From contig JAVHLC010000002.1 of NCBI GenBank assembly GCA_031082315.1, positions 147,362 through 211,361 of the forward strand: DNA of 64,000 bases, in the 5' to 3' direction. Position 1 is the stretch's first letter; each line of letters begins with the position of its first letter. The DNA is from Thermodesulfobacteriota bacterium (GTDB taxonomy: Bacteria > Desulfobacterota > QYQD01). Positions 1,006 through 64,000 of the stretch are shown here, one piece after another. A program made the translations under genes and the position numbers. The notes under the pieces were generated by a model. It was given only the letters and a program-made list of their open reading frames with translations, searched no databases and was not told the origin of the DNA.

Positions 1006-3313
1006 TTAGAATTCTTCAAAACCTTCCTCCATGTTGAGATCTGCTTCTTCCGGGGATATCTCTTTAAGCACGGCCTTTTGCAACATATCTTGACGTAAAG
1101 GCCTTTTTACCGGGGGCATAGTCCCCCTTTTTTCTCTCCCGGTGAGGGTTGCCGGAGTCAACGTCTCTTCCTCTATGGAATCTTCATCTGCCCCGGCCAC
1201 AGAAAATTCCTTGGTTAACTTTTTCAGGAGCGCGGCCTTAGCCGCCAGCGTTTGACTAGCGCCTGCTAATTGTTCAACCAGAGCGGCATTTTGCTGTACA
1301 ACATCCCCCATATCGGTAACAGCCTGATTCACTTGCTCAATACTGCGTGATTGTTCCTGAGTAGCCGCCGAGACCTCAGAAACGGCCTCGGACACGGCAG
1401 TGATGCATCCGGTTATCTTTTCCAGACTGCTGCCGGTTTGACCGACTAACTTATGGCTTTCTTCAATCTTAGCCATACTGTCATGGATGAGATTCTGTAT
1501 ATCTTTAGCTGCCTCCCCGCTTCTCTTGGAAAGATTGCGTATTTCCGTGGCTACCACCGCAAAACCGCGGCCGTGTTCACCGGCCCGGGCGGCCTCCACC
1601 GCGGCATTAAGGGCCAGGAGATTGGTCTGAAAGGTGATCTCGTTAACCAGGTCCATAATTTCTACAATTTTTTTGCTGGCGGTCCACACCTCAGTCATGG
1701 CATGGACCGTCTCTTTCACTACTGATGTTCCTTCCTGCGCCAGGGTCACGGATTCCTGAGCCAACTGGTTGACCTTCATGGTATTGGCAGCGTTCTGGCT
1801 GACATTGGCGGTCATTTGTTCGAGGGTGGCGCCGGCTTCTTCTATAGTGGCCGCCTGCTCCTGAGTCCGCTGCGACAGGTCCTGATTACCCGCGGAGATC
1901 TGATTTGTCCCCCGGGCCACAATTTCCGCAGTCCTTTTTGTCTGCTTTATGAGCGAGCCAATCTTCTCGAACATCTCGTTGACCTTGTCTGCCAGCCTGT
2001 CCATGAGGTCTTTTTTACCTATGGACTCTACTCTGGCCGTGAGATCTCCCCCGGCGGCCTTGTCCAGGACATTGAGCAGATTGTCCACCCGTCCTTCCAG
2101 ATACCGCCTTTGCTCCTCTTCCTTAGCGGCTGTTTCTTTGAGAATCTTTTCTGCCTCGACCCTGGCGGTAATGTCATGGAATATCTTGAAACCTCCCAGT
2201 ACCTTGCCGCTGGAGTCTTTAAGAACGGCGGCACTGGCCTCTATAGGAATAGTTTCCCCATGACGGTTAGTGATTTCACAATACACCCTTCCCCCCGCCT
2301 GGCCTGTTTCCATGCTTCTTTTTAATCCGCAGTCGGTCTTGCAGATGTTGCTGTTGAAGACGTTCCAGCACTTTACTTTGCCTTCCACTTCTTCTCTTTG
2401 GTATCCGGTTGTGGCCGCAGCGGCATCGTTCATATAGGTTATGGTAAGATCCGGATCGACAACGAAGAATGGATCGCTGATCCCGAGCTTCAGACTGTTC
2501 GCATATTCTATCCTGTCGCGCAGGTGTCGCAGCATGATATTGAAGTTTTTATTCAACGTCTCTATGGAGTCTTCGCCCCTCACCTCGATATTTACATCTA
2601 CGTCTCCTTCCGCTACCTGTTTTGCCTTATCGGCCAGATAGTGGATGCGCCGCGTGATGAGGCGGGTTATCAGATAGTTAAGGATTACAACCAAAGATAT
2701 GACTCCCAGCGCTCCGGCCATGATATACCGGTTTCTAAGAGAGGCAATAGAGGCATAATCAGCGGCTACGGATTGACGCACCACCAGAGAGCCCAGCACC
2801 CTTTTGGCCGGGGCATGGCAGTTGTAACAAGCCGGTTCATTAAGAATGGGATGAAAAATAAGGTTATATGGTTCGCCATTTATAGTCTGCAGGAATGGCC
2901 GTTTGGGATCAACGCCGGTAGAAAGTATATTGCTCAGGTTTTTTGTGAGTTCGGTATCCGCTAATAGATCCCCGAGCTTGGCCCCAACTGTTTCTTCATG
3001 ACTGGCATAGACTACGGTCTGGTCGGCATCCGTTATATAAACCTCTACCCCCTTCATGGCCGTTTTGATGTCCCTTAGTTGTTCCCTGACCGCGTCCATA
3101 TTACCGATGGCCATGGGGTGTTTTATCCCCGCGTGCGTCATGTCCGCCAGTTCCAGTTCAAACCGCGTCACTTTATTCAGGACATCCTCTCTATGACTAT
3201 TAACGCCAATGTATATAAGGACACCCGTAAAAAGCGCCGAGGTCAAGATTAGCGTGATCAGGATCTTGAAGCGCAAATTTTTGTTTATGTAGGATTGAAG
3301 GAACTTAAGCATG
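1006..3313 (-). CDS. Methyl-accepting chemotaxis protein with periplasmic c-type heme (CXXCH) sensor domain, HAMP, cytoplasmic PAS and MCP signalling domain
   Basis: Two TM helices flank a ~160-aa periplasmic region carrying a single CYNCH motif. C-terminal part carries methyl-accepting repeats ([31 protein letters not shown]...). Start reassigned to ATG at 3313 (MLKFLQSY), 24 nt after the cheA stop, with a G-rich RBS; the listed ORF start at 3408 would overlap cheA by 70 nt. Confidence 0.8.
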
Positions 3314-3337
3314 GGAATACCCCCCCTTTTTTTTGTT

Positions 3338-5479
3338 TCAATGGACTGGTTCATGGACCCGGCCTCGATCAAAAAATAGATGATCCAGACCATACACGTC
3401 CAGAACAAGGGCTACGCTGCCATCGGGCATAATAGCGCCCCCGGCAATCCCGGAAATTCTACAGAAATTTTTCTCCAGGTTTTTAATTACGACCTGCTGG
3501 TGATCGAGTATTTCGTCCACAACCAGGCCCAGGATCTTTTTTTCGCTACTTACAAAAACGACCAATGGTTCTGTATCTGTCTGCCGGCGGTCTATACCCA
3601 GGACTCTATCCAGGCGGATGAGCGGCACGCATGAGTCCCCCAAACGTATTACCTCACCCTTGCCTTCAATGGTCTTTAAGTTGCCTTTTTCAAGCTTGGC
3701 TGTGCTTAGAACGGTTAGCAAGGGTATGACAAAAATATCGTCCCCTATGCCAACATACATACCATCAATAACCGCCAGGGTTAAAGGGAGCTTTATGACG
3801 AAGGTAGCTCCTTTGCCTTTTTCGGAAAAGACATCGATCATCCCTCCCAATTGCTGAATGTTATTCTGTACTACGTCCATCCCTACCCCGCGGCCGGATA
3901 TGGAACTGATCTCTTTAGCAGTGGAAAATCCGGGGATAAATAGGAACTTGTAAATCTCTTCAGGCAAGGGCTGGTCGTTTTCTTTAATCAGGCCCTTTTC
4001 TATAGCCTTTCGCCGCACTGCTTCGGCGTCGATACCCCGGCCATCATCCTTAATTTCAATGTATATCTTGCCTTCCTGCTGGTAAGCATTAAGGCTGATG
4101 ATTCCCTCCGGGGATTTGCCCGACCGTTTCCTCTCCTCAGGGACTTCGATCCCGTGGTCAATGCAATTGCGTATCAGGTGCTTTAAGGGGTCGTTTATCT
4201 GTTCAATAACATCTTTGTCCAGTTCCGTTTCTCCTCCACCCAGGACAATCTTAACCTGCTTATGGTGCTCCCGGGCCAGGTCCCGGGCCATTCTTTGAAA
4301 CCTTTGAAATGTGCCTTCGATAGGAAACATGCGAAGACGCATAACCTGTTCCTGCACCTCCCGGCCGATCCTGTTCAGGATATCCGGCTCACCGCCCAAT
4401 TTTCTGGTGACATCCGGCGGCAAATTCCCCAGGATGGCGGAGATTCGCGCCATTTGTATGGTCATTTCTTCCACCATATTTGCGAGCTGGTCGAGCTTAT
4501 CTGTATCTACGCGTACCGTGGACTTACGCAGGACCGTCCGGCTTTTTTCCTGGAGGTCAACGATCTTGTTTAGTTCATCCGGAGAGATTTTGCCCTTTTC
4601 TAATAAAGCCTCCCCAACCTTTTTCTGCTGGGTGAGGACTTCTTGTATTTCCTGCTCGCTGACCAGTTTTTGATCAATTAATATCTCTCCCAGCGGCTTG
4701 TCAGCCATTCTGGTGTCCACCCCGTCCCGAAAATGTGATGATACGTCTCTTATGGAAACCTGGTTTAATTCATCTTCCTGGACAAAGACGAATACCTTTT
4801 CTATGGTGGGCAGGGGCCGGTCGGTTTTGATCAGGAGCCGCCAGGCAAGGTAAAGCTGAAAGGGGTCCATCTCCAGAAATGGCGGCAGAGAAGACAGGTC
4901 TGTCTCTACGGATATTATCTCAGCCAAATCTCCCAGTTCATACAGCAGCATCAGCGGATCCTGTCCGGTCTGGAAGATGTCCTTGCGAAAGCGCATATCA
5001 ATCTCGTAATAAGATCCCTTGGAGGATTCCTTCTGGCCGCCGGACATGCCGGTAGTTATCGGCGCAGTTGCCCGGCCTTCTTCTTGTTCTGCGGCTAGGC
5101 CCATGAACCGTTTTACTTTTTCGGCCATGGACGAAAAGGCATCCAGCCCTGCGTCCGGCTTTCCCTGGGAAGCATTTTCCACCGCCGATTTTATAACATC
5201 ATGGTTTTCCAGGAGAAAGGAGACCAGGTTTTGGGTTATAGGCAGTTGTTTGCTGCGTATCCTTTCCATGAGGTTTTCCAGGAGATGGGCGTGTTCAGAG
5301 AGCTGGGTAAAGCCGACCATAGCCGAGCTGCTCTTCATAGTGTGCATCGCCCGGAAGACCTCGTTAATAACGGACTGATTTTGCGGATCGGATTCTAAGG
5401 TCATCAGGCCGTGTTCCATGTTTTGCAACAATTCTTCCGCTTCTGAAAAATATATCTGTAAAAGCTCGTCCTGTTCCAT
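3338..5479 (-). CDS. cheA: Chemotaxis histidine kinase CheA
   Basis: 713 aa; N-terminal Hpt domain (FRAMHTMKSSSAMVGF), dimerization and HATPase_c regions (GRGVGMDVV), C-terminal CheW-like domain. Confidence 0.9.
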   Translation of the reverse strand: MEQDELLQIYFSEAEELLQNMEHGLMTLESDPQNQSVINEVFRAMHTMKSSSAMVGFTQLSEHAHLLENLMERIRSKQLPITQNLVSFLLENHDVIKSAVENASQGKPDAGLDAFSSMAEKVKRFMGLAAEQEEGRATAPITTGMSGGQKESSKGSYYEIDMRFRKDIFQTGQDPLMLLYELGDLAEIISVETDLSSLPPFLEMDPFQLYLAWRLLIKTDRPLPTIEKVFVFVQEDELNQVSIRDVSSHFRDGVDTRMADKPLGEILIDQKLVSEQEIQEVLTQQKKVGEALLEKGKISPDELNKIVDLQEKSRTVLRKSTVRVDTDKLDQLANMVEEMTIQMARISAILGNLPPDVTRKLGGEPDILNRIGREVQEQVMRLRMFPIEGTFQRFQRMARDLAREHHKQVKIVLGGGETELDKDVIEQINDPLKHLIRNCIDHGIEVPEERKRSGKSPEGIISLNAYQQEGKIYIEIKDDGRGIDAEAVRRKAIEKGLIKENDQPLPEEIYKFLFIPGFSTAKEISSISGRGVGMDVVQNNIQQLGGMIDVFSEKGKGATFVIKLPLTLAVIDGMYVGIGDDIFVIPLLTVLSTAKLEKGNLKTIEGKGEVIRLGDSCVPLIRLDRVLGIDRRQTDTEPLVVFVSSEKKILGLVVDEILDHQQVVIKNLEKNFCRISGIAGGAIMPDGSVALVLDVYGLDHLFFDRGRVHEPVH

Positions 5480-6180: not shown

Positions 6181-6626
6181 TGAATTCTCGCAGTCTTACA
6201 TTTCTAATGGTTCATTATGGCTTTTCGGCTAATGGGAGGACTTACTTAAACGAAAAGGGGGTTTTTTCTATCTCAGTTTACGGGGACGGACGTGGGGTAA
6301 AATAAAAGCTGTATTCTCGGTCATCCATATTCAAAGTCCGTATTTATTTCAGGCTCTTTTGTTATTAGCCATACGTGCCGATCTGTTAAACTAATGAGCG
6401 CCCCCACTTAGTCAGGTATAAGGTCTTCGAAGGGAAATACCCGGATCAAAAACTTGCTTGCAGGAATATTACAGGAGTAGCTATCCAATATTGAAGCTCC
6501 CCGCAGCAAGCTGCGGGAAATGCGCTCGCTATGCATGTTCAAGAAAAAACACAGAAGAGTGGGGGCACTATGAACGCTCTACACGAACGTACGCACATGG
6601 ACGGAAAAGGAGGAAAAGAGGAAAAA

Positions 6627-7046
6627 ATGGACATAACGATCTTGTTAGCCGATGATTCAAAGTTGGTTCAAGCCAAGTTCAGGTTGGCACTGGAAAAGGC
6701 AGGGTTTCAAGTTATCAGTGCCCTCGACGGCAAAGAAGGGCTGAGTATTGCCAGGGAAAAGAAGCCGGATCTCATTATCCTGGATGTGAATATGCCGGGG
6801 ATGGACGGTTGGCAGGTCCTTCGCTCTTTAAAGATTCATCCTGAATTGCGCAAGATACCCGTCATTATGGCTACGACTGCGGACAAGATTGCCGACATAG
6901 AACGGGGTTTTTCTCTGGGCGCAAAAGAATACGTCGTCAAGGACGAGCAACTCACCCGTTTGGTCGACAAGGTTGAAAAAGTGATGGCAAGCCAGAAACC
7001 TGAGACAAAAGTTGAAGGGAGCTGGGTAAAAAAAATGTTCTCGTAA
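6627..7046 (+). CDS. Stand-alone response regulator (receiver domain)
   Basis: MDITILLADDSKLV...DVNMPGMDGWQVL...K receiver signature. Start chosen at the ATG at 6627, preceded by GGAAAAGAGG; the listed ORF begins upstream at 6531. Confidence 0.7.
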   Translation: MDITILLADDSKLVQAKFRLALEKAGFQVISALDGKEGLSIAREKKPDLIILDVNMPGMDGWQVLRSLKIHPELRKIPVIMATTADKIADIERGFSLGAKEYVVKDEQLTRLVDKVEKVMASQKPETKVEGSWVKKMFS

Positions 7047-7702
7047 GACTTCGTCTGAAGAGTAACCAAGGGATTGCCTTAGAAACAAGCTCGTTTGATA
7101 CACGTCTAAAGGCCTGCAATCCCCCCACCAGTTTCGGCCGACGAGCTTGATCCCGGCTGGTTTCTGCATAGGAAAGGTAACGCCTTCTCGCCAAAACAGG
7201 ACAGCACATATTTTGTACCCTGCGAGGAGCCGCCTTCGAAGTGATCGAGACCGAGCCTTTTTTCATCGGCCGAAGACTAGAAAACACTATATCTCTATGT
7301 AACGCCCGTCCATACAAAAAAGCAATGCACCGGCTGTTTTTCGCACTATGGTCCGGGTGCAGCGTCAGCTCAGGTTCCGCTTTGGGGTGTCGCCGGAGAA
7401 AAGGCCCGCGGACAATCTGACAAATGTGCCTGAATCCAAACAGGTAGCATCATAAGGGGGTGTGGCATGGGAACAATTGTTCTCTTTTAGTGGAATTGTT
7501 TTTCCACTGGTCCAATCCCTTTCTCCCTCTGTCGCGGTAATCGTCTTAGCCATCATTTCCATTGACAACGTAATAACAACATGTTAGCGTCTTTCGGTAA
7601 TGTCCATGCCATTGGCACTCCATTTGCATTAGCTACGATTCATCGACGTCGTCAGCTTTACCGTGTAAAGCAGCATCCGCAGGCCGCCTCAGGAGTAGCA
7701 TT

Positions 7703-8872
7703 ATGGTCATGCCCAAGGACCGGACGAAATCAGGCATCAAGATACCCCGGCAAAAGGCACTCACATTCGCGGCGACTTTAATCTTTTCCCTTGTCCTGAT
7801 CCTATCGCTCCCACCCGCCGCTTCCGCCAGAGTGACGGGACCATGTGCCAACTGCCACACCATGCACAACAGTCAGGGGGGACTTCCGGTAGCGCCCGGA
7901 GGCCCCTACGGCCAACTACTGGTAGGCGACTGTGTGGGCTGCCATTCTGCCACCGACGGCGCGACCTGGAAAGATCCGGTAACCGGCGCTCCTATTGTCA
8001 ATAATACCGGCCAGCCCTCCTACGGCAGTCAAGGTCTCGCCGGCGGGAATTTCTATTGGGTAACGGTAAGCGACGGGAACGGGCACAACGTGTTTCCGGC
8101 TAATCCCGATGACGTCCTGATGAGCGCCCCCGGGGAAGCGTACGTAGGCGGCGGCTGTGGCACAAACGTTTGCCATAGCAATCTCCATCTTCCTTTTCAG
8201 ACTTCTTCCGAATTCGAGCCCATTCATGGCTACCTGAACGGGCGATCCGGCTGCACCGGCTGCCATATGGTATCCGGCTTCAACAAGTTCAGTCAAATCA
8301 AGAGTTGGCATCATACCAGTGTTACAGATGGGGTGGCGGATAGCGCTGCAGAGGGATGGTACCGGTTTCTGTCGGGCCATTTCAGCGGTTACCAGTACGG
8401 AGTCGCAGGCATAGAGGATGGCGACTGGCAATACACCAGCAGTGCCAGTGACCATAATGAGTACCTGGGTAAGCAGGTCGCCAGCGGGACTGGTGGTTTC
8501 GTCTCCATAGCAGGGAACACGGCCACGGCCTTCTGCTGTGGCTGTCACGGAAATTTCCACATCAAGAGACAGGGAGGGGCCTGGATACGACACCCCGTAG
8601 ATCGTAAGATACCGGCGTCCGGTGAATACGCCGACGCTTTCGGTGCCGCCACCGGCACCGCGACGTATGACCCCATCGTCCCCGTAGCCCGACCCACACT
8701 CGCCGCGGTCAGTGACACGGTAACCATAGGCACGGACATGGTCATGTGTCTCTCCTGCCATAGGGCCCACGCCAGCCCCTATCCTGACATGCTTCGATGG
8801 GACTACGCGACTATCCAGGCCGACGGTGGAGGAACCGGCGGCTGCTTCCAATGTCACACGAGCAAGAATTAG
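7703..8872 (+). CDS. OmcS-family multiheme c-type cytochrome (nanowire-type outer-surface cytochrome), paralog 1
   Basis: Signal peptide, then CANCHTMHNSQGG (OmcS N-terminus is ...CEGCHTMHNS...). Also CVGCH, CGTNVCH (CX4CH), CTGCH, CCGCH, CLSCHRAHAS (as in OmcS CLSCHRAHASGFDSM) and C-terminal CFQCHTSKN. Low heme density and a Gly/Ser/Thr-rich sequence. Confidence 0.75.
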   Translation: MVMPKDRTKSGIKIPRQKALTFAATLIFSLVLILSLPPAASARVTGPCANCHTMHNSQGGLPVAPGGPYGQLLVGDCVGCHSATDGATWKDPVTGAPIVNNTGQPSYGSQGLAGGNFYWVTVSDGNGHNVFPANPDDVLMSAPGEAYVGGGCGTNVCHSNLHLPFQTSSEFEPIHGYLNGRSGCTGCHMVSGFNKFSQIKSWHHTSVTDGVADSAAEGWYRFLSGHFSGYQYGVAGIEDGDWQYTSSASDHNEYLGKQVASGTGGFVSIAGNTATAFCCGCHGNFHIKRQGGAWIRHPVDRKIPASGEYADAFGAATGTATYDPIVPVARPTLAAVSDTVTIGTDMVMCLSCHRAHASPYPDMLRWDYATIQADGGGTGGCFQCHTSKN

Positions 8873-16766: not shown

Positions 16767-16852
16767 ATCGTCTTAAAGTCCATACCTTCTACGAACGTTT
16801 CAATAGAAGAATTTTATGATCATCTCCCCTCTTCCCGCCTGTCGATGGAGCT

Positions 16853-17713
16853 TCAATTACTTAAGGACGGCTCGGCGCACCCTCCGTCTAGGTCGTAGTT
16901 CGCAATTGCCAATTCAGTCGTGATTTGGCGCTTGCAAACTACTGCTGCCAGCACGCTGTGCCGACGCAGCACGGCATAGTTCCATTCCGCAGCGGAATAG
17001 AGCCTCTTGATGCTGGGCGAGTCCGCATTTGACACGAGGACCAAAGCCCCCCGCCTGGAGGCTTCGCCAACAGCAGCCGCAAGGCGTTCCTGGTCTTCCC
17101 AGCAAAAAAGGCGTTCATTGTACTTAATGAAATTGTTCTGGTTGTGCTGGACCGTGTATGGAGGATCTACGTAAACGAAGTCACCTGCACCTGCTTCATA
17201 CAGCACTTCTTCAAAGTCACCACAGACTAAATGCGCAGACCGTAACGCATTCGCGACCGTTGAGAAATCATCATCGGGGAATGTGACAGTATCCTTGGTT
17301 CCTTTTGGCACGTTGAAAACGCCTTGCCTATTCACACGATAGAGGCCATTGAAACAAGTCCTGTTTAAGTAGATAAATCTGGCCGCACGAGAAGCAGCAG
17401 TTCTCGGCTTGCTGGTGCGGATCCGGTAGTAGTGTTCCTTACTGTGACGCTGCCGATGCCATAGAAGTCTCTCCCATACCAATCGCCAGTCGTCCCGTAT
17501 TGCGTAGTATGTCTCAATAAGGTCGTGATTCGCATCGCTGAGATAAGCATGACTAGGGCATAGGCCGAAAAAGACAGCCCCACTACCCAAAAACGGCTCG
17601 AAATACCGGTTGTATGACTTAGGAAAAACCGTACGGTGGTCAGACACAAGCCACCTCTTGCCTCCCGCCCATTTTAAGAATGGTTTCACACGCTGCCGGG
17701 TGTCCACAGTCAT
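16853..17713 (-). CDS. DNA N6-adenine methyltransferase, Dam/D12 class
   Basis: KWAGGKRWL (SAM-binding motif I), EPFLGSGAV, DPPY (catalytic motif IV); 286 aa. Confidence 0.85.
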   Translation of the reverse strand: MTVDTRQRVKPFLKWAGGKRWLVSDHRTVFPKSYNRYFEPFLGSGAVFFGLCPSHAYLSDANHDLIETYYAIRDDWRLVWERLLWHRQRHSKEHYYRIRTSKPRTAASRAARFIYLNRTCFNGLYRVNRQGVFNVPKGTKDTVTFPDDDFSTVANALRSAHLVCGDFEEVLYEAGAGDFVYVDPPYTVQHNQNNFIKYNERLFCWEDQERLAAAVGEASRRGALVLVSNADSPSIKRLYSAAEWNYAVLRRHSVLAAVVCKRQITTELAIANYDLDGGCAEPSLSN

Positions 17714-21369: not shown

Positions 21370-22170
21370 TTAATTTATATAGCTGTGCAGGCCGGAGAGA
21401 AGGAAATTGACGCCAAAATACGTAAAGAGCACTGATACAAAGCCGCCAATGGAGAGCAGGGCGATCTTTTTGCCATGCCACCCGCGCAGACGGACATGAA
21501 GAATGATCGCATAGACGAACCACGTAATCAGAGACCAGGTTTCTTTAGGGTCCCATTGCCAGTAGGCCCCCCAGGCCGAGTGTGCCCAGATGGAACCGGT
21601 TGCGATGCCGGCGGTAAGAAACAGAAAACCAAAGACAATCACCCGATAGTTAAGGGTATCCAGGTCTTTTTTGTCATCGGATCTTTTAAACAGGTATGCT
21701 ATGCTCAGGCCACAGGAAACAGCGAATGCGCCATAACCAATAAAGCAGGTGATGACATGGGCAATGAGCCAGTTGCTCTGCAAGGCCGGGACAAGCGGTT
21801 CAATGCGGCTTGAAATAGTCGGTGAAAACGAGGCGTAGGCCAGACCAAGGAAGGCAAAAGGTACGGTGAACACGCCTGCGTGGGCGAGTTTATACTTATA
21901 TTCAGCAATAAAATGGATCAAAATTATTGCCCAGGCAAAGAAGACCAGGGACTCATAAAAATTGGCAAATGGGGCATGGCCGATCCCGAGGTTGTGGGAT
22001 TCAACCCAGCGTAAAATAATAGCAGCGGTATGTGCAACAAAGGTGCCTATAGTGACAACCGAAGCGATCCTCTGGCCGATTTTTGTCTTAAAGATCAGGG
22101 CGCTCAGATAAAATATCACTGCCGCAAGATAGCTGAACGTTACGACAGCGAGAATTTTCGAACTCAGCAT
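21370..22170 (-). CDS. ccsA: Cytochrome c biogenesis protein CcsA (System II heme lyase subunit)
   Basis: WGAYWQWDPKETWSLITWFVYA is the tryptophan-rich WWD domain; multi-pass membrane protein; immediately downstream of resB. Confidence 0.8.
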   Translation of the reverse strand: MLSSKILAVVTFSYLAAVIFYLSALIFKTKIGQRIASVVTIGTFVAHTAAIILRWVESHNLGIGHAPFANFYESLVFFAWAIILIHFIAEYKYKLAHAGVFTVPFAFLGLAYASFSPTISSRIEPLVPALQSNWLIAHVITCFIGYGAFAVSCGLSIAYLFKRSDDKKDLDTLNYRVIVFGFLFLTAGIATGSIWAHSAWGAYWQWDPKETWSLITWFVYAIILHVRLRGWHGKKIALLSIGGFVSVLFTYFGVNFLLSGLHSYIN

Positions 22171-22188
22171 GGCCGTCCGTTTCCCCTT

Positions 22189-23559
22189 TTATTTTATATC
22201 GGCTTTCTGGAGTCGCAGGTAGAGATTATCAAGCCTTTCTTCCAGCCCCAGTTTGTTTTTATTTGTCTGGCCGCCGATGGTAACCGTTGTCCCCTCGCCT
22301 TTTTTCTCCAGCACAGCCCATATCTTACGGTGTGACATGAAAAAGGTCACGGCAATTCCCAATACCATTAATATACTGCCGGCCCAGACAAAGAGGATGC
22401 CCGGTTCCTTGGCTACCTGGAGGCCGGTGTAGAAACCTTCCCTTACCTCGGTTACGAGAAATCGGTACGGTAATTTCTTGGCCCGTCCAAAGTCCGGGTT
22501 GTTTTTGAATATCCAAAGGTCGGTTTGTCCTCCATCGGGTCTGGTCAACAGCATCTGAACCGCGGGGCCCATATCCATCACATTCGGCTCAACCCGTAAT
22601 GAACGAAGAGTACCCAGCCCATCAGGCAAAATGGCCTCCTGGCCGAATGGAACAGAAAGCGGAATGATTTTCCCGCTGCTTTTATCAACCAGATTAAGTT
22701 CAATCGTCTTTGGGAAGCGACCGTAAGAGGCCTGATAAAAAGTGATACCTCTGTACGTAAGGGGCTGGTTGACCCGGATGTTGCCGTTCAAAACCGGCTT
22801 CCCGTTTTCGATAATGGTTATGTCGCTGCGGTAATCCCTTGGTTCGCCGGTGGGATAAAACTGGGCCTCAAACTTATCAACGCGGAGGGCAAAGCCCAGA
22901 TTATAGCCTACGTTAGTATTAGGCAGGGGAACCTGTTCCACCACCGCCCCTTCCGGCAGATTAATGCTGGTCATGAACCCGCCCAGAGAGCTCGCTATCC
23001 CGGCAATATAGAAAATAACGACGCTAAGATGCACGACATAGACCCCGAGACGGGATAATCTTCCCTTTTCCCGCCAGAGAATTGTTGTTGAGCCGGTGGT
23101 AGTCTCGTTCAGATCGCCCAGCCTACCTGAAAGAATGGGCAAGAGCGCGGCCTTAACCACGGAAGGGTTCGCTTTATATTTTAAGGCCCTCGTCCCTGGA
23201 CTGGCCAGGACAGCGTTTTCGTTAAGCCTCTTTTCTTTTGGGAAAACAATATCCCAGACATGCCGGAGCCTGTCCGTAGTACAGACAATCAGGTTCAGCG
23301 CCAGGAGAAGGAGAAGGAGTCTAAACCACCCCGAATGATAGAGGTCCAGCAGAGACAACGAATCCAAAAGCTGGTAAGTGCCATACCCATACCGCTGAAC
23401 ATACATGGCGGGAGGCTCATTTTGAGGGATAAGCGTCCCGACAATAGAGCTTACCGCGAGAAATATAAGTAAGAATATGGTGAGGTTAACTGAAGCGAGA
23501 GATTTCCAGAAAGGTTGTTTTTTTTCGGGTGGCGCTGGGAGGCTGTTTTCCGGCTTCAT
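22189..23559 (-). CDS. ccsB: Cytochrome c biogenesis protein ResB/CcsB (System II)
   Basis: 456 aa; N-terminal TM, large periplasmic domain and C-terminal TM; adjacent to ccsA. Confidence 0.75.
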   Translation of the reverse strand: MKPENSLPAPPEKKQPFWKSLASVNLTIFLLIFLAVSSIVGTLIPQNEPPAMYVQRYGYGTYQLLDSLSLLDLYHSGWFRLLLLLLALNLIVCTTDRLRHVWDIVFPKEKRLNENAVLASPGTRALKYKANPSVVKAALLPILSGRLGDLNETTTGSTTILWREKGRLSRLGVYVVHLSVVIFYIAGIASSLGGFMTSINLPEGAVVEQVPLPNTNVGYNLGFALRVDKFEAQFYPTGEPRDYRSDITIIENGKPVLNGNIRVNQPLTYRGITFYQASYGRFPKTIELNLVDKSSGKIIPLSVPFGQEAILPDGLGTLRSLRVEPNVMDMGPAVQMLLTRPDGGQTDLWIFKNNPDFGRAKKLPYRFLVTEVREGFYTGLQVAKEPGILFVWAGSILMVLGIAVTFFMSHRKIWAVLEKKGEGTTVTIGGQTNKNKLGLEERLDNLYLRLQKADIK

Positions 23560-23760
23560 GTCATTGTATCTCAGAGGGTTATTAAGGTGTCATAACTAAC
23601 GGAAATCCTGTAAAGACTACCCAAAAACAGTCCATTCATTAACATCCCTGTCCCCCGCTTGTCAAGGATTTTATAGCCTCCACTGCTTACGGTTGACACC
23701 ATCCCAAAAAGAAAGGCGACCTAATGGTCGCCTTTCCAGGTTTATCTCCTGATATTACCC

Positions 23761-24684: not shown

Positions 24685-24760
24685 TGTCCACCTCTCATAA
24701 CTAAACCTTGGAGGGGCGCCTTGGGGCGCCCCTTATCGCTTACGTATCAGCCCAAACGGC

Positions 24761-26149: not shown

Positions 26150-26193
26150 AGGGGCAAAAACAAGGCGGGATGGGTATAGATACCCATCCCGCC
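26150..26193 (-). terminator. Intrinsic terminator after the OmcS-like gene (perfect hairpin GGCGGGATGGGTAT/ATACCCATCCCGCC, then U-rich tract on the minus strand)
   Basis: Inverted repeat 26164-26193; minus-strand continuation TTGTTTTTGCCCC. Confidence 0.55.
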
Positions 26194-26224
26194 CGGGTTA
26201 ATTATCTTATCTTTACAACCAAGA

Positions 26225-27322
26225 TTAACTACCGTCATCCTTGGTGGTATGGCAGACAAAGCACCCTGTGCTAAGGGAGCCTCCGTTCGCTATCATAGTG
26301 CTATAATCCCATCTCAGAATATCCGCATAGCCGCTGGCATGGGCCCGGTGACAGGAGAGGCACGTAACGATATCAGTGCCGGCTGCCACTGTCCCGCTCG
26401 CCGCATTGGGGATTGTAGTCCGCCCCACCGGAACCGTAGGATTATAAGTAGTCGAGATGCTTGCATATTCACCGCTATTAGGTATGAGCACATCAGTTGG
26501 ATGTCTTGTCCAGGGGCTGGCTGTACCAATACCGGTAGCGCCTGACATATGGAAACTACCATGGCACTCGGCACAGAGCTCGCTTATGGTATTGACATCC
26601 GCCCAGGCCATGGTGGTTCTGGCGGCATAGATTGCACCTTTATACTCATTGTGGTCAGCGGCACCAACCGTGTCCTGCCAATCGGTGTCCTCTCCGCCCT
26701 GTACTTTGTAGAGGAAACGGTAACTGGTGGCTACAGAAGCCCCTTGAGAACCTTCGACGATACCGCCAAACTTAAGGACGGCGTCACTGCCATGGTGGGC
26801 TCCACTTACACCGGCATAATTGCCGGAATTATCCCGGTTGCCATGGCAACCATTTTGCCCGGCACAGGTCAGCCGGCTGGCGGTAGCGTAATCCGTGCTT
26901 GCAGGATCCATAGCAGCTGCATAGCCCGGGGGTGTGTTCGTTAATGTGCCGTCTGCGGCCACGACGCCCTCGACGTTGTGTCCGTAGGCATCGCCAGTAT
27001 CTACGACGTACTTAAAATTGCCGCCGGCCAGGTCATTACCGTCGCTGTGCCACACCTGGGGAATATTGGTAACAATGTTGCTTGCCCCTGCCGGATCGCT
27101 TCCGTGACAACCAACACAGGTACCGCGCACCAGGTTTCCCTGGGGGTCTGTCTCCCCAGCCTTTAACTGCATTTCCGTACCACCCTGGCTGTTGTGCATG
27201 GTATGGCAGTTTACGCAGGCACCTGTGACGGTTGCCAGGGCATACCCGACCGGTACCAAGGCCAGAAATACGCTCAATAGAACCGCCAAACAGCTAGTTT
27301 TAAACATACCTGCCCTTCTCAT
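26225..27322 (-). CDS. OmcS-family multiheme c-type cytochrome, paralog 2
   Basis: CVNCHTMHNSQGG, CVGCHGSDPAG, CAECHGSFH, CLSCHRAHASGYADILRWDY, CFVCHTTKDDGS; paralogous to 7703-8872. Start uncertain (27307 or 27322; signal peptide MRRAGMFKTSCLAVLLSVFLALVPVGYALA); the listed start at 27493 is unlikely. Confidence 0.8.
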   Translation of the reverse strand: MRRAGMFKTSCLAVLLSVFLALVPVGYALATVTGACVNCHTMHNSQGGTEMQLKAGETDPQGNLVRGTCVGCHGSDPAGASNIVTNIPQVWHSDGNDLAGGNFKYVVDTGDAYGHNVEGVVAADGTLTNTPPGYAAAMDPASTDYATASRLTCAGQNGCHGNRDNSGNYAGVSGAHHGSDAVLKFGGIVEGSQGASVATSYRFLYKVQGGEDTDWQDTVGAADHNEYKGAIYAARTTMAWADVNTISELCAECHGSFHMSGATGIGTASPWTRHPTDVLIPNSGEYASISTTYNPTVPVGRTTIPNAASGTVAAGTDIVTCLSCHRAHASGYADILRWDYSTMIANGGSLSTGCFVCHTTKDDGS

Positions 27323-60890: not shown

Positions 60891-62096
60891 ATGAATGCCT
60901 CCAGAAAAAGCGAGAATTATCTTTTTCTTTGTGTCTTTGTGTCCTTGTGGCTAAATTTTCTCTTTTTTATCCCTCATTTTTCTTCCTCTCTTAGTTACGC
61001 CCAGGCCGGACCTTTTCCAAAGGACAAGATAGTCTATGTAGGCCAGATTACACAGGACGAAGAGGGAAAATTTATTTCCTATCCCTCTTATGTCTATGTG
61101 GACCCTGTTAAGCGCGAGGTTTATATTATTGAAGGCCGGGGCCGCATTTTGATCTACAATGCCAGTTTTTTCCCCTTATTTACATTAGATAAGAACTACG
61201 GCATTGAGAGCCCGCAGGGGGTGATGATAGACGCCCGCGGCTATCTATGGGTAGCGCAGGGGGCGGGACCGAATAACCGGCGCGGCCGTATCTCGCTCTT
61301 TGACCCTTGTCTTAAATGGATGCGGGACATATATTTTAGCGGGTTTATAGGGGCGGAGGAATTTATCCCGTATCGATTAGCTGAAAATAGCCGCGGGGAA
61401 ATATTTGTTATCGGCACTTACAGCCCGGCAGTCGTCATCCTGGACAGTTTCGGTAATTTTCAGGGGACTTTTTTTCAGGAGGAAGAGGGGGAAGGCCAGA
61501 AGAAGAGGGTGGCGGTCAATGATGTCCTGATCGGCCCGGACGACCGCTTATATCTGTTAAGTGAAGAGACCAGCCATGTCTATGTCTATGATGCCGACCG
61601 TAATTTCCTCTTTAAATTCGGTCAGAAGGGCGGCAGCACCGGCAAGATGAGCCGGCCGCAGGGCATCGGGCTGGACAAACGGACCGGGATTTTTTTTATC
61701 GTCGATTACATGCGCCATGTGGTGACGGCTTATGACCGCAAGGGCGGGTTTATATTTGAATTTGGCGGCTTAGGATGGGGAGAGGGATGGCTGCAATATC
61801 CCAAGGACATCACGGTGGATGAAACCGGTCGGGTTTTTATAGCCGATTTGTTTAATAACCGTGTGCAGGTGTTACAGGTTATAGAGCAGGTTTTACCGGA
61901 AAAAGCGGCAGAGGAAGTAGAACCGGTAGGGCCGGAAGGGGTCGAGGTCCCCGGAGAACAGGTTAAGGCGCCGGAGCCGGCCGGAGCCGTAGAAAGTAAG
62001 GGCGTAACATCCATACCGCCGGTGCCGATAAGCGAGACAGAGCCTAAAAAGAGTGAACGCATGGAAACCGGCACGGAAGGGGAAGCAGGCAAATAA
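60891..62096 (+). CDS. NHL-repeat beta-propeller protein (secreted/lipoprotein-like) with acidic Pro/Glu-rich C-terminal tail
   Basis: Repeated NHL-type blades (PQGIGLDKRTGIFFIVDYMRHVVTAYD; PKDITVDETGRVFIADLFNNRVQVLQV). Confidence 0.7.
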   Translation: MNASRKSENYLFLCVFVSLWLNFLFFIPHFSSSLSYAQAGPFPKDKIVYVGQITQDEEGKFISYPSYVYVDPVKREVYIIEGRGRILIYNASFFPLFTLDKNYGIESPQGVMIDARGYLWVAQGAGPNNRRGRISLFDPCLKWMRDIYFSGFIGAEEFIPYRLAENSRGEIFVIGTYSPAVVILDSFGNFQGTFFQEEEGEGQKKRVAVNDVLIGPDDRLYLLSEETSHVYVYDADRNFLFKFGQKGGSTGKMSRPQGIGLDKRTGIFFIVDYMRHVVTAYDRKGGFIFEFGGLGWGEGWLQYPKDITVDETGRVFIADLFNNRVQVLQVIEQVLPEKAAEEVEPVGPEGVEVPGEQVKAPEPAGAVESKGVTSIPPVPISETEPKKSERMETGTEGEAGK

Positions 62097-62261: not shown

Positions 62262-63440
62262 ATGAAAGATACCTTAATCACACTTGCAATATGTATCTTC
62301 TTGACCACAAATCCGGTATATGCCGGGACTTATCTTGATTCAGCCCACGGGAATACCTCTTACGGTGTAAGCCGAACGAGCACTTCCTCCGTCTATACCA
62401 AGGGGCACTGCGCCCACTGCCATGAGCAGCACGCCAGTATTGAGGGTGTGGAACCAGACCCTACCGGCGGGCCTGATAAATGGCTGGTCTTCACCACCCT
62501 GTATACTGATCAGGATACCGGGCTCTGTCTCAGCTGCCACGCCGGCAGTTCCAGCCAGGTAGGCATGCCCAACCAATACACCTTCAGTTACAAATTCGGA
62601 GGGGACACCAGTCTTACCTGTCCAAGCAGCATCGCACAGGCGTTCAGCTTTATCACAGAAGGCGGCGTGCCCCAATCAACCTGCGGCTCCACCACGGGCT
62701 CTTCGCATCAGCTGACGGCAGTGAGAACGTTTTTGAAGAGCAAGTGGGGATTCGGCGCCACAAACCCCAAGGTGAATCCGTGCTCCGGGTGCCACAATCC
62801 GCACAGGGCGCAGAGGCATAGCTACCCGTCGGGGAGCGCAGGCACGTCTCCGCTATCCCGGCCCACCACGCATGACGGTGACTGGAATGTGTACGGCGCC
62901 GCCACGAACGAACGGATGAGCAACTACGTCTATCAGGCCCCTTACTCTTCCGGTTCCGCAACGACCTATGAGCCTGACGGTACGGTTACCTTGGACGGAT
63001 CCAATATGCCGGATTATGTGACGTTTTGTACGGACTGCCACAATGCCTCTTACAGCACCGGCCAGATGACAAGCTCGCAGAAATCCCAGTTCGCAACCGT
63101 CGGTGCACAGCCGTACATCAGGAGCCCGAACTGGACTACATCCCCGCACGGGCAGGCCGATGCCAGTATGGACGCCACGAAAAGAAAGGCTCCCTACACA
63201 GCAGACAAGAATTATGTCCTTTCCTGTACTGATTGCCACGAGGCCCATGGCAGCCCCAACCGCATGCTCATCCGCAAGGAAATAAACGGCTCAAGCGTCG
63301 TGACCTTTGATACCTGGAATGATCGAGACGGCTGGTTCACGGTCTGCCAGCGCTGTCACACCATCGACAGCGGCCACAAGGGCTCCAATCCGTGCTATGT
63401 GTGCCATCAGCACGACACAAGCTGGTTCAAACCTATCTAA
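62262..63440 (+). CDS. Heptaheme c-type cytochrome (7 CXXCH in 392 aa; low heme density, Ser/Thr/Gly-rich; extracellular-type)
   Basis: CAHCH, CLSCH, CSGCH, CTDCH, CTDCH, CQRCH, CYVCH; signal peptide; immediately upstream of an OmcS-like gene. Confidence 0.8.
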   Translation: MKDTLITLAICIFLTTNPVYAGTYLDSAHGNTSYGVSRTSTSSVYTKGHCAHCHEQHASIEGVEPDPTGGPDKWLVFTTLYTDQDTGLCLSCHAGSSSQVGMPNQYTFSYKFGGDTSLTCPSSIAQAFSFITEGGVPQSTCGSTTGSSHQLTAVRTFLKSKWGFGATNPKVNPCSGCHNPHRAQRHSYPSGSAGTSPLSRPTTHDGDWNVYGAATNERMSNYVYQAPYSSGSATTYEPDGTVTLDGSNMPDYVTFCTDCHNASYSTGQMTSSQKSQFATVGAQPYIRSPNWTTSPHGQADASMDATKRKAPYTADKNYVLSCTDCHEAHGSPNRMLIRKEINGSSVVTFDTWNDRDGWFTVCQRCHTIDSGHKGSNPCYVCHQHDTSWFKPI

Positions 63441-63522: not shown

Positions 63523-64000
63523 ATGGAACTCAAGCGGCATAACGTAAAAATACTACAAATAATCATTATATATATTGCGGCATTGATCGTAGTAATCCCA
63601 AATCTATCCCACGCCAAGGTCACCGGCGTCTGTTACAACTGTCATACCATGCACAACAGCCAGGGCGGCGCGTCCATGGCCCAGGAATATTCTTCCGGGA
63701 GCGGCGGGTTGACAGGGGATTCCAGCCCAAACCCGTGTCTGCTGTCTTATGACTGCGTTGGTTGTCATTTTTCCAGTACGGCCAATACCATTGTAAGTAA
63801 TACCCCCGTAGTTCTGAATAGCGCCGCCCCTGCTTCTCCTCTGGCGGGGGGTAATTTTTATTGGGCTGTGAATACTGGCGATAAATATGGTCACAATGTG
63901 TATGGAATTAAGGCTCAGGAAGGCTCGCCGATGGATGCACCTCCGGGCTTCAAGGCAAGTGCTGGCACGCCCAGTGGCTACGGAACCGGGCCGGCCTCAT
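63523..64000 (+). CDS. OmcS-family multiheme cytochrome, paralog 3 (partial; runs off window end)
   Basis: Signal peptide, then KVTGVCYNCHTMHNSQGGAS, CVGCH, GGNFYWAVNTGDKYGHNVYG (parallel to GGNFYWVTVSDGNGHNVF in paralog 1). Confidence 0.75.
   Translation, partial: MELKRHNVKILQIIIIYIAALIVVIPNLSHAKVTGVCYNCHTMHNSQGGASMAQEYSSGSGGLTGDSSPNPCLLSYDCVGCHFSSTANTIVSNTPVVLNSAAPASPLAGGNFYWAVNTGDKYGHNVYGIKAQEGSPMDAPPGFKASAGTPSGYGTGPAS

What the first reader, a model, noticed from the sequence alone, without database searches (positions are those of the whole stretch)
7703..8872. OmcS-family nanowire-type cytochrome paralogs: three copies within one 64-kb window
Genes at 7703-8872 (+), 26225-27322 (-) and 63523->64000 (+) share the OmcS N-terminal motif C-x-x-CHTMHNSQGG and a mid-protein GGNFYW block. 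The two complete copies also share CLSCHRAHAS-x7-RWDY and the C-terminal CF(Q/V)CHT(S/T)K. These are the blocks I recall from Geobacter sulfurreducens OmcS (CEGCHTMHNS; CLSCHRAHASGFDSM; CNKCHAKD). In OmcS they include residues that coordinate hemes of neighbouring subunits in the polymerised filament. Several divergent paralogs suggest multiple filament types or regulated isoforms, as with omcS/omcT in Geobacter.
Basis: partly seen in the sequence, partly recalled or inferred. Interest (0 to 1): 0.7.

Follow-up and report, generated by a model that had tools for sequence, protein, structure and literature searches.

The report
Three OmcS-like multihaem cytochrome genes
The window carries three real, diverged copies of a secreted multihaem cytochrome that is a distant relative of the Geobacter "nanowire" protein OmcS, but this OmcS-like clade and its habit of occurring in several copies are already described, so the genes are ordinary members of a known kind.

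Summary

There are differences from OmcS. Copy 1 has seven haem motifs, with a CX4CH third motif and one extra CxxCH. Copy 2 has six, with a CX5CH third motif. The family is very large, at 1,507 50%-identity clusters. It is usually multi-copy, and it has been published as "OmcS-like" for syntrophic sulfate reducers and for Desulfurivibrio DA_402. Polymerisation has not been shown for this clade. Natural tandem fusions and circular permutations found elsewhere in the family give indirect support for head-to-tail contact. Verdict: new members of a known kind, moderate-to-low interest.

The parts
7703..8872 (+). Copy 1 (c1): OmcS-like cytochrome, 389 aa, seven haem motifs. Signal peptide is residues 1-42, cleaved after A-S-A.
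7844..7867 (+). c1 haem-1 'arm' motif C48-A-N-C-H52-T-M-H55. H55 aligns with OmcS His16, the inter-subunit ligand of haem 5.
   Evidence: Alignment to OmcS. His in 212 of 213 occupied family rows.
8156..8176 (+). c1 third haem motif CGTNVCH (CX4CH). It aligns with OmcS C140-S-S-C-H144.
   Evidence: The spacer between the two Cys is 4 residues in 87 of 122 relatives and ranges from 3 to 9 in all but one.
8252..8266 (+). c1 extra (fourth) haem motif CTGCH, absent from OmcS and from copy 2.
   Evidence: It co-occurs with His226 across the family: 173 rows have both, 36 neither, 25 the motif only, 3 the His only.
8747..8770 (+). c1 block CLSCHRAH, aligned with the OmcS haem-5 motif C328-H332 plus H335.
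   Evidence: Invariant in A1.
7613..7628 (+). Exact sigma-54-type -24/-12 box TGGCAC-N5-TTGCA, 75 nt upstream of the c1 start codon.
   Evidence: Only two exact boxes occur in the window. Function is not tested.
26225..27322 (-). Copy 2 (c2): OmcS-like cytochrome, 365 aa, six haem motifs (five CxxCH plus CAGQNGCH, a CX5CH). It lacks the extra haem motif and His226. Signal peptide is cleaved after A-L-A.
   Evidence: Subfamily profile A3 against OmcS gives E=2e-14. 100% identical to the NCBI MAG protein P0121, annotated 'cytochrome c3 family protein'.
26163..26194 (-). Strong intrinsic-terminator-like hairpin (14-bp stem, 9 G-C pairs, T-run) 31 nt after the c2 stop codon. c2 is probably monocistronic.
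63523..64000 (+). Copy 3 (c3): N-terminal 159 aa of a third OmcS-like gene, cut by the end of the window. It carries a signal peptide, CYNCHTMHNSQGG, CVGCH, GGNFYW and GHN.
62262..63440 (+). Seven-haem cytochrome (392 aa) 82 nt upstream of c3. It shares only the N-terminal CxxCHxxH...CxxCH module with the OmcS-like family and is a recurrent neighbour of OmcS-like genes.
   Evidence: hhalign of A1 against A4 gives 95% probability, E=3.4e-8, over 53 columns. Homologues are present in 22 of 79 related loci; where both positions were compared, the gene begins within about 200 nt of the end of the OmcS-like gene. No OmcS hit in the PDB.
60891..62096 (+). NHL-repeat beta-propeller protein at the head of the c3 cluster.
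   Evidence: Pfam NHL. Homologues occur in 25 of 79 loci. The same neighbour is present in D. ferrophilus (PMC9769857).
23761..25570 (-). Two dodecahaem cytochromes downstream of c2: 24761-25570 with an N-terminal anchor or signal, and 23761-24684 with lipobox IWGC.
   Evidence: Homologues lie next to OmcS-like genes in 22 and 16 of 79 loci.
21370..23559 (-). System II cytochrome c maturation pair: ResB/CcsB (22189-23559) and CcsA (21370-22170).
   Evidence: Pfam PF05140 at E=1.5e-94 and PF01578 at E=8e-53.

Best explanation
The three genes encode Sec-exported multihaem c-type cytochromes of the 'OmcS-like' clade, a distant sister group of Geobacter OmcS that keeps the OmcS fold. Copy 1 has seven haem motifs, copy 2 has six, and copy 3 is incomplete.

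Proposed mechanism:
1. The signal peptide is cleaved about 5 residues before the first haem cysteine.
2. Haems are attached in the periplasm. A ResB/CcsA System II pair is encoded in the window.
3. The proteins act outside the cell as a linear chain of bis-His haems that carries electrons between the cell envelope and external partners such as minerals or syntrophic cells.
4. The most likely mode of action is the OmcS one. The N-terminal haem-1 module (CxxCHTMH) of one subunit docks on the C-terminal haem-5/6 face (CLSCHRAH...RWDY...CxxCH) of the next. Its second histidine completes haem 5 in trans. This gives head-to-tail polymers.
5. The paralogs represent distinct subunit types, hexahaem and heptahaem. 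At least copies 1 and 2 appear to have separate transcription signals: a candidate sigma-54 promoter before c1, and a terminator directly after c2.

Shown: paralogy, homology and fold similarity to OmcS, conservation of haem motifs and His positions, secretion signals, and gene context.
Inferred: extracellular location, polymerisation, and direction of electron flow.
For: Homology and fold:
- Profile hits to OmcS only, or far ahead of other hits.
- Reciprocally, OmcS detects 238 of 240 family proteins, with a best score of 36 bits.

Ligands:
- All six OmcS haem motifs align. So do H16, H110, H247, H257 and H335, all invariant or nearly so.
- Filman et al. (PMC6584659) state that 11 of the 12 axial His come from the same subunit and one, on haem 5, from the neighbouring subunit. 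That this ligand is His16 is my own recollection of Wang et al. 2019.

Block conservation between c1 and c2:
- The blocks aligned with the OmcS haem-1 arm and the haem-5 motif are the best conserved. By my count on the alignment, 15/17 and 21/26 residues are identical, against 39% overall.

Export:
- Signal peptides are present, with no lipobox or anchor.

Indirect support for head-to-tail contact elsewhere in the family:
- Tandem two-unit fusions exist. The junction has 8-11 residues between the last haem-motif His and the next unit's first haem Cys. That is about the length of a normal C-terminal tail plus a mature N-terminal lead, with no signal peptide between the units (P0241, P0037).
- A subfamily carries the arm motif moved to the C-terminus, after the last haem motif (P0266, P0270, P0271, P0285, P0311, P0365).

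Literature:
- OmcS-like genes are proposed as nanowires and are highly expressed in syntrophic SRB (PMC10553843).
- DA_402 of D. alkaliphilus is upregulated more than 100-fold on iron oxide. It has 7 motifs, is predicted to polymerise, and forms a sister clade of OmcS (PMC12545173).

Context:
- Dodecahaem cytochromes, an NHL protein and a ResB/CcsA pair lie in the neighbourhood.
Against: - No member of this clade has a solved filament structure. In a PDB copy from 2026, only OmcS itself matches.
- The likely sixth distal His of OmcS (H147) is not conserved, and family-specific histidines (H203, H204, H251) replace it. Haem packing may therefore differ.
- The AlphaFold model leaves the first 34 mature residues, which contain the arm, at pLDDT<50. 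The trans-ligation geometry is untested.
- In D. ferrophilus, the probable ortholog cluster (DFE_0464-0465) could be deleted without loss of Fe(III) oxide reduction. Its products were also not recovered in outer-membrane fractions (PMC9769857).
- The fusions and permutations show that the arm lies close to the C-terminal face. They do not prove open-ended polymerisation.
Confidence: 0.6

Rival explanations
1. The proteins are OmcS-fold cytochromes that do not polymerise. They would act as discrete extracellular or periplasmic electron carriers. They might instead be subunits of a bounded complex with the neighbouring NHL beta-propeller, the seven-haem cytochrome and the dodecahaem cytochromes, forming a surface-attached module rather than a wire.
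For: - Polymerisation has never been shown for this clade.
- Neighbours recur: NHL in 25 of 79 loci, the seven-haem cytochrome in 22 of 79, and the dodecahaems in 16-22 of 79.
- The same NHL-cytochrome order is seen in D. ferrophilus.
- P0241 is a closed two-unit fusion whose first unit lacks the arm histidine (CNRCHDGG). Bounded assemblies of this fold therefore exist.
- Deletion of the probable D. ferrophilus orthologs gave no phenotype (PMC9769857).
Against: - The arm histidine is almost universally conserved in canonical members (212 of 213).
- If the fold keeps the linear OmcS haem order, haem 1 and haem 5 lie at opposite ends of a subunit. A cis ligand is then hard to arrange.
- Multiple tandem copies per locus, up to 6, together with the very high expression reported for relatives (PMC10553843, PMC12545173), fit a structural polymer subunit.
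Confidence: 0.3
2. The proteins are catalytic multihaem enzymes, for example a reductase with an open haem coordination site, rather than pure electron conduits.
For: The c2-subfamily profile has weak local hits to cytochrome c nitrite reductase NrfA (E=0.002-0.014, profile positions 237-354). The CX4CH and CX5CH motifs are non-canonical.
Against: - There is no CxxCK or other catalytic-haem motif.
- Conserved non-motif histidines outnumber the haems: 9 for 7 haems in the c1 type and 8 for 6 in the c2 type. Every haem can therefore be bis-His.
- The NrfA hits are about 11 orders of magnitude weaker than the OmcS hit and cover only a haem-packing segment.
Confidence: 0.04
3. The resemblance to OmcS is a chance or compositional effect of CxxCH-rich sequences, with no common ancestry.
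For: The single-sequence E-value against OmcS is only 0.015. Foldseek found nothing. Pfam and NCBIfam recognise only generic paired-CxxCH domains.
Against: - Two independent subfamily profiles give E=1e-18 and 2e-14 over about 320 aligned positions, with OmcS the sole or top hit among 177,635 sequences.
- Shared non-haem blocks include GG(N/D)F, GHN, YR(F/I)L, RHP and the tail of CLSCHRAHAS.
Confidence: 0.01

Closest known systems
OmcS of Geobacter sulfurreducens (GSU2504; PDB 6EF8/6NEF), hexahaem nanowire subunit
   Same: - All six haem motifs are in the same order.
- The N-terminal CxxCHTMHNS arm, with the His16 equivalent, is present.
- The GG-x-F, GHN, RHP and CLSCHRAHAS blocks are shared.
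- Both have a Sec signal peptide and no anchor.
   Different: - Only about 26% identity.
- c1 has a seventh haem motif.
- The third motif is CX4CH (c1) or CX5CH (c2) instead of CxxCH.
- OmcS H147 is not conserved, and the family has its own invariant histidines (HH at 203/204, and DHNEY at 251).
- The roughly 45-residue OmcS insertion between haems 5 and 6 is absent.
- The mature N-terminus is 5 residues before the first haem Cys, not 8.
- No filament has been demonstrated.
OmcS-like clade of Desulfurivibrio alkaliphilus (DA_402, DA_756, DA_765; Nature 2025, PMC12545173)
   Same: - DA_402 is described with seven CX2-5CH motifs, six of which align to OmcS, as in c1.
[quoted passage not shown]
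- Desulfurivibrio MAG loci are among the relatives found here at about 41% identity (L059, L062). These MAG loci were not compared with DA_402 itself.
   Different: - That paper discounts the seventh motif for lack of a paired His in its model. Here the extra motif co-occurs with a conserved His (H226) across the family, and copy 2 has lost both.
- The host here is an uncultured Thermodesulfobacteriota MAG, and no expression data exist.
OmcS-like cytochromes of syntrophic sulfate reducers (Seep-SRB1a/1g/2, HotSeep-1; Murali et al. 2023, PMC10553843)
   Same: Multiple copies per genome, co-location with other putative extracellular cytochromes, and the proposed nanowire role.
   Different: No oetABI porin-cytochrome cassette is visible in the 64-kb window, and the region downstream of c3 is cut off. 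I did not test identity of the neighbouring seven-haem cytochrome with OmcX.
Desulfovibrio ferrophilus extracellular cytochromes DFE_0450/DFE_0464 (Deng et al. 2018, PMC5815863; PMC9769857)
   Same: P0070 of D. ferrophilus is 50% identical to c1. It sits after an NHL-repeat gene and before a homologue of the window's seven-haem cytochrome. This matches the published DFE_0463-0465 order.
   Different: The mapping of P0070 to DFE_0464 is inferred from gene order only. The published work did not recognise the OmcS relationship. The deletion mutant had no Fe(III) oxide phenotype.
OmcE and OmcZ cytochrome filaments of Geobacter
   Same: Extracellular polymerised multihaem cytochromes. OmcE also uses a histidine from the adjacent subunit (PMC9473688).
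   Different: No sequence or fold match was found here: they are absent from the hits. They have different haem numbers (4 and 8) and folds.

Membership tests
OmcS family (Geobacter OmcS/OmcT type hexahaem nanowire cytochromes) | Full-length sequence homology to OmcS | tested here: met
   Profile E=9.6e-19 (profile positions 35-358 against OmcS 8-348) and E=2e-14. The single sequence gives only E=0.015, so the relationship is distant.
OmcS family (Geobacter OmcS/OmcT type hexahaem nanowire cytochromes) | OmcS fold | tested here: met
   [not shown]
OmcS family (Geobacter OmcS/OmcT type hexahaem nanowire cytochromes) | Exactly six CxxCH haem motifs in conserved order | tested here: inconclusive
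   All six OmcS motifs have aligned counterparts. However, c1 has a seventh motif, and the third motif is CX4CH in c1 and CX5CH in c2. c2 has six in total. c3 is incomplete.
OmcS family (Geobacter OmcS/OmcT type hexahaem nanowire cytochromes) | N-terminal CxxCHxxH whose second His (OmcS His16) ligates haem 5 of the neighbouring subunit | tested here: met
   The sequence position is conserved: c1 H55, c2 H43, c3 H44, and His in 212 of 213 occupied family rows. The trans-ligation itself is not testable here.
OmcS family (Geobacter OmcS/OmcT type hexahaem nanowire cytochromes) | Remaining distal His ligands conserved | tested here: inconclusive
   H110, H247, H257 and H335 are conserved. H147 is not: the position is Leu in c1 and Arg in c2. 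The assignment of OmcS ligands other than His16 is my inference from conservation, not read from the structure.
OmcS family (Geobacter OmcS/OmcT type hexahaem nanowire cytochromes) | Secreted soluble protein: Sec signal peptide, no lipobox, no transmembrane anchor | tested here: met
   The N-termini carry A-x-A-type cleavage sites. The first mature Cys belongs to a haem motif. The maximum Kyte-Doolittle 19-residue mean after residue 45 is <=1.24.
OmcS family (Geobacter OmcS/OmcT type hexahaem nanowire cytochromes) | Polymerises into conductive filaments | not testable with these tools
   Support is indirect only: natural tandem fusions and arm-permuted relatives.
Published 'OmcS-like' sister clade (DA_402 type; syntrophic-SRB OmcS-like) | About 350-400 aa, signal peptide, 6-7 CX2-5CH motifs alignable with OmcS, and occurrence in Desulfobacterota/Nitrospirota, often in several copies | tested here: met
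   descriptions in PMC12545173 and PMC10553843. Relatives include Desulfurivibrio MAGs (L059, L062). No direct alignment with the DA_402 sequence was possible because that sequence was not held.
TIGR01904 (GSu_C4xC__C2xCH, CxxxxCH/CxxCH domain cytochromes) | Score at or above the curated cut-off of 27 bits | tested here: not met
   Only c2 matches, at 20.1 bits. c1 and c3 have no hit.
Pfam PF09699 / TIGR01905 (paired CXXCH) | Score above the gathering threshold | tested here: met
   On Pfam PF09699, c1 scores 42.4 bits and c2 35.3 bits against a cut-off of 20.6, at the C-terminal haem pair. On TIGR01905, only c1 passes: 30.9 bits against a cut-off of 25.2, while c2 scores 19.9. This is a generic domain and says nothing about function.

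The most novel reading that the evidence does not exclude
The OmcS-like genes may belong to a modular 'donor-arm' polymer system. In this reading the haem-1 arm module (CxxCHxxH) of any unit plugs into the C-terminal haem-5/6 face of another unit. Different paralogs could then co-assemble into mixed or capped wires. These would include the hexahaem c2 type, the heptahaem c1 type with a possible side-branch haem, and the adjacent seven-haem cytochrome family (62262-63440).

Four observations hint at this:
- The seven-haem family shares only the arm module with OmcS-like proteins.
- Its gene recurs beside OmcS-like genes, in 22 of 79 loci.
- One natural protein (P0327) fuses a c2-type unit directly to a seven-haem unit with no signal peptide between them.
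- An anchored subfamily carries the arm at its C-terminus, as if self-capped.
Probability: 0.2. Interest if true: 0.7.

Novelty: new member of a known kind. Interest (0 to 1): 0.35.

Why it matters
Cytochrome nanowires are the only structurally proven route for micrometre-scale biological electron transport, and OmcS is the paradigm. These genes show that an uncultured Thermodesulfobacteriota lineage carries three diverged OmcS-like subunits, with hexahaem and heptahaem types side by side. The closest genome is the MAG SpSt-1152.

This extends the picture of a very large OmcS-like clade: 1,507 clusters at 50% identity, and at least 572 matching stretches in species-representative genomes, including Desulfobacterota and Nitrospirota MAGs. 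Public annotation still calls these proteins 'cytochrome c3 family protein'.

The practical gains are:
- a clean ligand map against OmcS;
- a candidate distal ligand for the seventh haem;
- natural fusion and permutation variants that could guide structural tests of whether this clade polymerises.

Nothing here overturns current views.

Tried and rejected
- The first AlphaFold run, full length with 40 sequences, was too poor to use (pLDDT 55). It was rerun on the mature sequence with 122 sequences.
No OmcS-specific Pfam or NCBIfam model matched.
- I looked for riboswitches upstream of the genes, such as the GEMM type known before Geobacter cytochrome genes. Rfam at gathering thresholds found only one tRNA in the whole window.
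- Exact-sequence look-ups of c1, the seven-haem cytochrome and P0121 found no contig on record. The rest of copy 3 and its downstream genes could therefore not be recovered.
- My recollection that Geobacter GSU2505, next to omcS, is an NHL-repeat protein was not confirmed. The paper I checked lists it as hypothetical, so I make no such claim.
- My reading of the N-terminal hydrophobic segment of the permuted fusions as pilin/PilX-like was not confirmed by Pfam. I describe it only as an N-terminal hydrophobic anchor.
- The seven-haem neighbour is not demonstrably a fourth OmcS-family member. Its family profile does not hit OmcS in the PDB, and only 53 N-terminal columns align with the OmcS-like profile.
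- A literature search for heptahaem OmcS-type cryo-EM structures found none.
- Many 'OmcS' text hits in PMC5815863 were the plural 'OMCs'.
Full report
**Observation**

The three ORFs are present as described. I call them copy 1 (c1), copy 2 (c2) and copy 3 (c3).
- c1: 7703-8872(+), 389 aa.
- c2: 26225-27322(-), 365 aa.
- c3: starts at 63523(+) and runs off the window after 159 codons.

All three carry C-x-x-CHTMHNSQGG a few residues after a signal peptide. c1 and c3 have GGNFYW, while c2 has GGNFKY. The two complete copies share CLSCHRAHAS-x6-RWDY (six residues, not seven) and CF(Q/V)CHT(S/T)K.

The copies are true paralogs:
- c1 vs c2: 39% identity over the full length, E=1e-66.
- c3 vs c1: 45%, E=1e-19.
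- c3 vs c2: 47%, E=5e-29.

**Is it OmcS-related or just CxxCH-rich?**

Library models see only generic haem domains. PF09699/TIGR01905 match at the C-terminal haem pair, and TIGR01904 is below threshold. Against all PDB sequences, c1 alone finds OmcS first, but only at E=0.015.

Profiles settle the question:
- A 40-sequence alignment of c1 relatives (A1) hits OmcS (6ef8_A) as the only PDB sequence, at E=9.6e-19 over profile positions 35-358 and OmcS residues 8-348.
- A separate 40-sequence alignment of c2 relatives (A3) hits OmcS at E=2e-14. The next hits are NrfA-type cytochromes at E>=0.002.

I checked the OmcS sequence I used. It matches 6ef8_A over residues 1-407 at E=4e-282, and the printed alignment shows no mismatch.

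Structure prediction:
- The first run was poor (pLDDT 55).
- The mature sequence with 122 relatives gave pLDDT 72.6 and pTM 0.74.
- Foldseek found nothing.

Homology and a shared fold are therefore established.

**Ligand map**

OmcS haem motifs begin at C9, C47, C140, C239, C328 and C400. Each aligns with a motif in c1 and c2. Five non-motif OmcS histidines align with invariant or near-invariant family histidines:

| OmcS | c1 | c2 |
|---|---|---|
| H16 | H55 | H43 |
| H110 | H128 | H115 |
| H247 | H286 | H258 |
| H257 | H297 | H274 |
| H335 | H356 | H328 |

The H16 equivalent in c3 is H44.

Filman et al. (PMC6584659) state that all 12 axial ligands of OmcS are His, with 11 from the same subunit and one, on haem 5, from the neighbouring subunit. 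That this ligand is His16, paired with His332, is my recollection of Wang et al. 2019 (Cell). I could not read that paper here. The His16 equivalent is His in 212 of 213 family rows that have a residue at that position.

Differences from OmcS:
- OmcS H147 is not conserved.
- The family has its own invariant histidines, c1 H203, H204 and H251.
- The third haem motif is CX4CH in c1 and most of its relatives (spacer of 4 in 87 of 122 sequences). In the c2 subfamily it is an invariant CAGxNGCH, a CX5CH.
- c1 has an extra CxxCH (C184-H188) between OmcS haems 3 and 4, giving seven motifs.
- c2 lacks this motif and also lacks H226.
- Across 237 aligned family rows, the extra motif and a His at or near position 226 go together: 173 rows have both, 36 neither, 25 the motif only, 3 the His only. 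I infer that H226 is the distal ligand of the seventh haem.
- The window therefore holds a heptahaem subunit type and a hexahaem subunit type.

Neither criterion applies.
- Similarity is not limited to CxxCH spacing, and the inter-subunit ligand position is conserved.
- Each protein has a typical Sec signal peptide: PAASA|RVTGPC, YALA|TVTGAC and LSHA|KVTGVC.
- The first mature cysteine belongs to a haem motif, so there is no lipobox.
- No hydrophobic segment follows the signal peptide.

**How common is this?**

- Word-indexed searches returned 2,617 relatives for c1 and 3,251 for c2.
- An exhaustive profile search of 1.84 billion representatives found 1,507 clusters at E<=1e-3 and 527 at E<=1e-30.
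- In GTDB species representatives, at least 572 stretches match. Titles among the best 80 include Thermodesulfobacteriota, Nitrospirota, Desulfuromonadales and Desulfurivibrio MAGs. D. ferrophilus has a member (P0070).
- The closest genome is the MAG SpSt-1152, with c1 at 91% and prfC at 96.6% identity.
- c2 is 100% identical to an NCBI MAG protein from a Thermodesulfobacteriota bacterium, annotated only as 'cytochrome c3 family protein'.
- Multiple copies are the rule. 30 of 79 related loci of at most 17 kb contain 2-6 OmcS-like genes, and several MAGs appear with two loci.

**Literature**

The clade is already described.
- Murali et al. 2023 (PMC10553843) report OmcS-like cytochromes in all four syntrophic SRB clades. 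They occur in multiple copies, are highly expressed, and are proposed to form nanowires together with OmcX and Apc2a.
- In D. ferrophilus, P0070 lies after an NHL-repeat gene and before a homologue of the window's seven-haem cytochrome. This matches the published DFE_0463-0465 arrangement. The Delta464-465 mutant still reduced Fe(III) oxide (PMC9769857). Deng et al. (PMC5815863) reported these 'extracellular' cytochromes as induced by electron-donor starvation.

**Context in the window**

- c1 stands alone between a receiver-domain gene and prfC. An exact sigma-54 box, TGGCAC-N5-TTGCA, lies 75 nt before its start codon.
- c2 is followed 31 nt after its stop codon by a strong terminator-like hairpin.
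- Downstream of that lie two dodecahaem cytochromes, one with a lipobox, and a ResB/CcsA System II pair.
- c3 follows an NHL-repeat protein and a seven-haem cytochrome.
- Homologues of these neighbours recur beside OmcS-like genes elsewhere: NHL in 25 of 79 loci, the seven-haem cytochrome in 22 of 79, and the dodecahaems in 22 and 16 of 79.
- The seven-haem family shares only the N-terminal CxxCHxxH...CxxCH module with the OmcS-like family (hhalign 95%, E=3.4e-8, 53 columns). Its profile does not hit OmcS in the PDB.

**Indirect evidence on polymerisation**

Among the best 150 representatives, three kinds of natural variant bear on this.
- Tandem fusions of two OmcS-like units:
  - P0241 has the junction CLSCHTEK-IGAAGP-CSDCHTMHN, and P0037 is similar.
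  - The junction has 8-11 residues between the last haem-motif His and the next unit's first haem Cys. That is about a normal C-terminal tail plus a mature N-terminal lead.
  - There is no signal peptide between the units.
- An arm-permuted subfamily (P0266, P0270, P0271, P0285, P0311, P0365):
  - These lack the N-terminal arm. They carry CxxCHTMH-type motifs 12-20 residues after the last haem motif instead.
  - The four full-length members (P0266, P0270, P0271, P0285) also have an N-terminal hydrophobic segment.
  - One such gene lies convergent to a canonical copy in L047.
- A direct fusion of a c2-type unit to a seven-haem-type unit (P0327).

These variants indicate that the arm module works next to the C-terminal face of a unit, as in the OmcS filament interface. 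They are consistent with head-to-tail assembly but do not prove open-ended polymers.

**Conclusion**

The genes are new members of the already described OmcS-like clade.
- The electron-conduit role is well supported by homology.
- I rate filament formation as likely but not shown, at about 0.6.
- Having three copies is typical for the family rather than remarkable.
- The more novel leads concern the wider family more than this window. They are the candidate ligand for the seventh haem, the arm permutations and fusions, and the possible partner role of the adjacent seven-haem cytochrome.

Noticed in passing
window 62262-63440 (+); related loci such as L006 9174-10382, L007 9076-10239, L010 9050-10219: A seven-haem cytochrome family recurs beside OmcS-like genes, in 22 of 79 loci. 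In L007 and L010 the two genes are almost contiguous. The family shares only the N-terminal CxxCHxxH...CxxCH module with OmcS-like proteins. It has a conserved YLxSAHGNxSYGVxR lead and has no solved relative. One natural protein (P0327) is a direct fusion of an OmcS-like unit to a unit of this type. It could be the 'OmcX' of the syntrophic-SRB literature, but I did not test this.
   Followed up: partly
proteins P0266, P0270, P0271, P0285, P0311, P0365; locus L047 7389-9494 (-): A subfamily of OmcS-like proteins has the haem-1 arm motif (CxxCHTMH) moved from the N-terminus to the C-terminus. The four full-length members (P0266, P0270, P0271, P0285) also have an N-terminal hydrophobic segment and an insert of about 250 aa. 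In L047 such a gene is convergent with a canonical OmcS-like gene. It may be a self-capped or anchoring unit.
   Followed up: partly
proteins P0241 (841 aa) and P0037: Natural tandem fusions of two OmcS-like units are joined by a linker no longer than a normal C-terminal tail plus a mature N-terminal lead. In P0241 the first unit's arm lacks the second histidine (CNRCHDGG).
   Followed up: partly
window 7613-7628 (+) and 52434-52449 (+): There are two exact sigma-54-type boxes (TGGCAC-N5-TTGCW). One is 75 nt before the c1 start codon. The other is about 250 nt before a porin-like ORF (52700-54043). By my own arithmetic, about 0.06 exact boxes are expected by chance on both strands. The tool's count at up to one mismatch was not above chance.
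   Followed up: partly
window 21370-25570 (-): Two dodecahaem cytochromes are followed by a ResB/CcsA System II haem-attachment pair directly downstream of copy 2. The lyase might be specialised for the CX4CH/CX5CH motifs, as dedicated CcsA isoforms are in Wolinella. That idea comes from my own knowledge and is untested. CcsA-like genes occur near OmcS-like genes in only 7 of 79 loci.
   Followed up: partly
window 40543-43527 (-): A second CcsA-family gene (41828-42655) lies between hemA (glutamyl-tRNA reductase) and a sirohaem-synthase-like gene. This is a haem-biosynthesis-linked arrangement, separate from the ResB/CcsA pair.
   Followed up: no
window 15396-20028 (-): A defence-island-like block: a DndB-domain protein (772 aa), a D12-class N6-adenine methyltransferase, and a Schlafen/AlbA_2 protein with HATPase_c_4 and HTH domains.
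   Followed up: no
window 51121-52140 (-); 52700-54043 (+); 55459-56979 (+): An IS30-family transposase lies next to two ORFs with weak, sub-threshold similarity to the Desulfovibrio-type homotrimeric outer-membrane porin (NF033939).
   Followed up: no
window 1006-5479 (-), 6531-7046 (+), 47213-49609 (-): Chemotaxis genes in the window: a PAS-containing methyl-accepting chemotaxis protein, CheA, a stand-alone receiver domain directly upstream of copy 1, and a second methyl-accepting chemotaxis protein.
   Followed up: no
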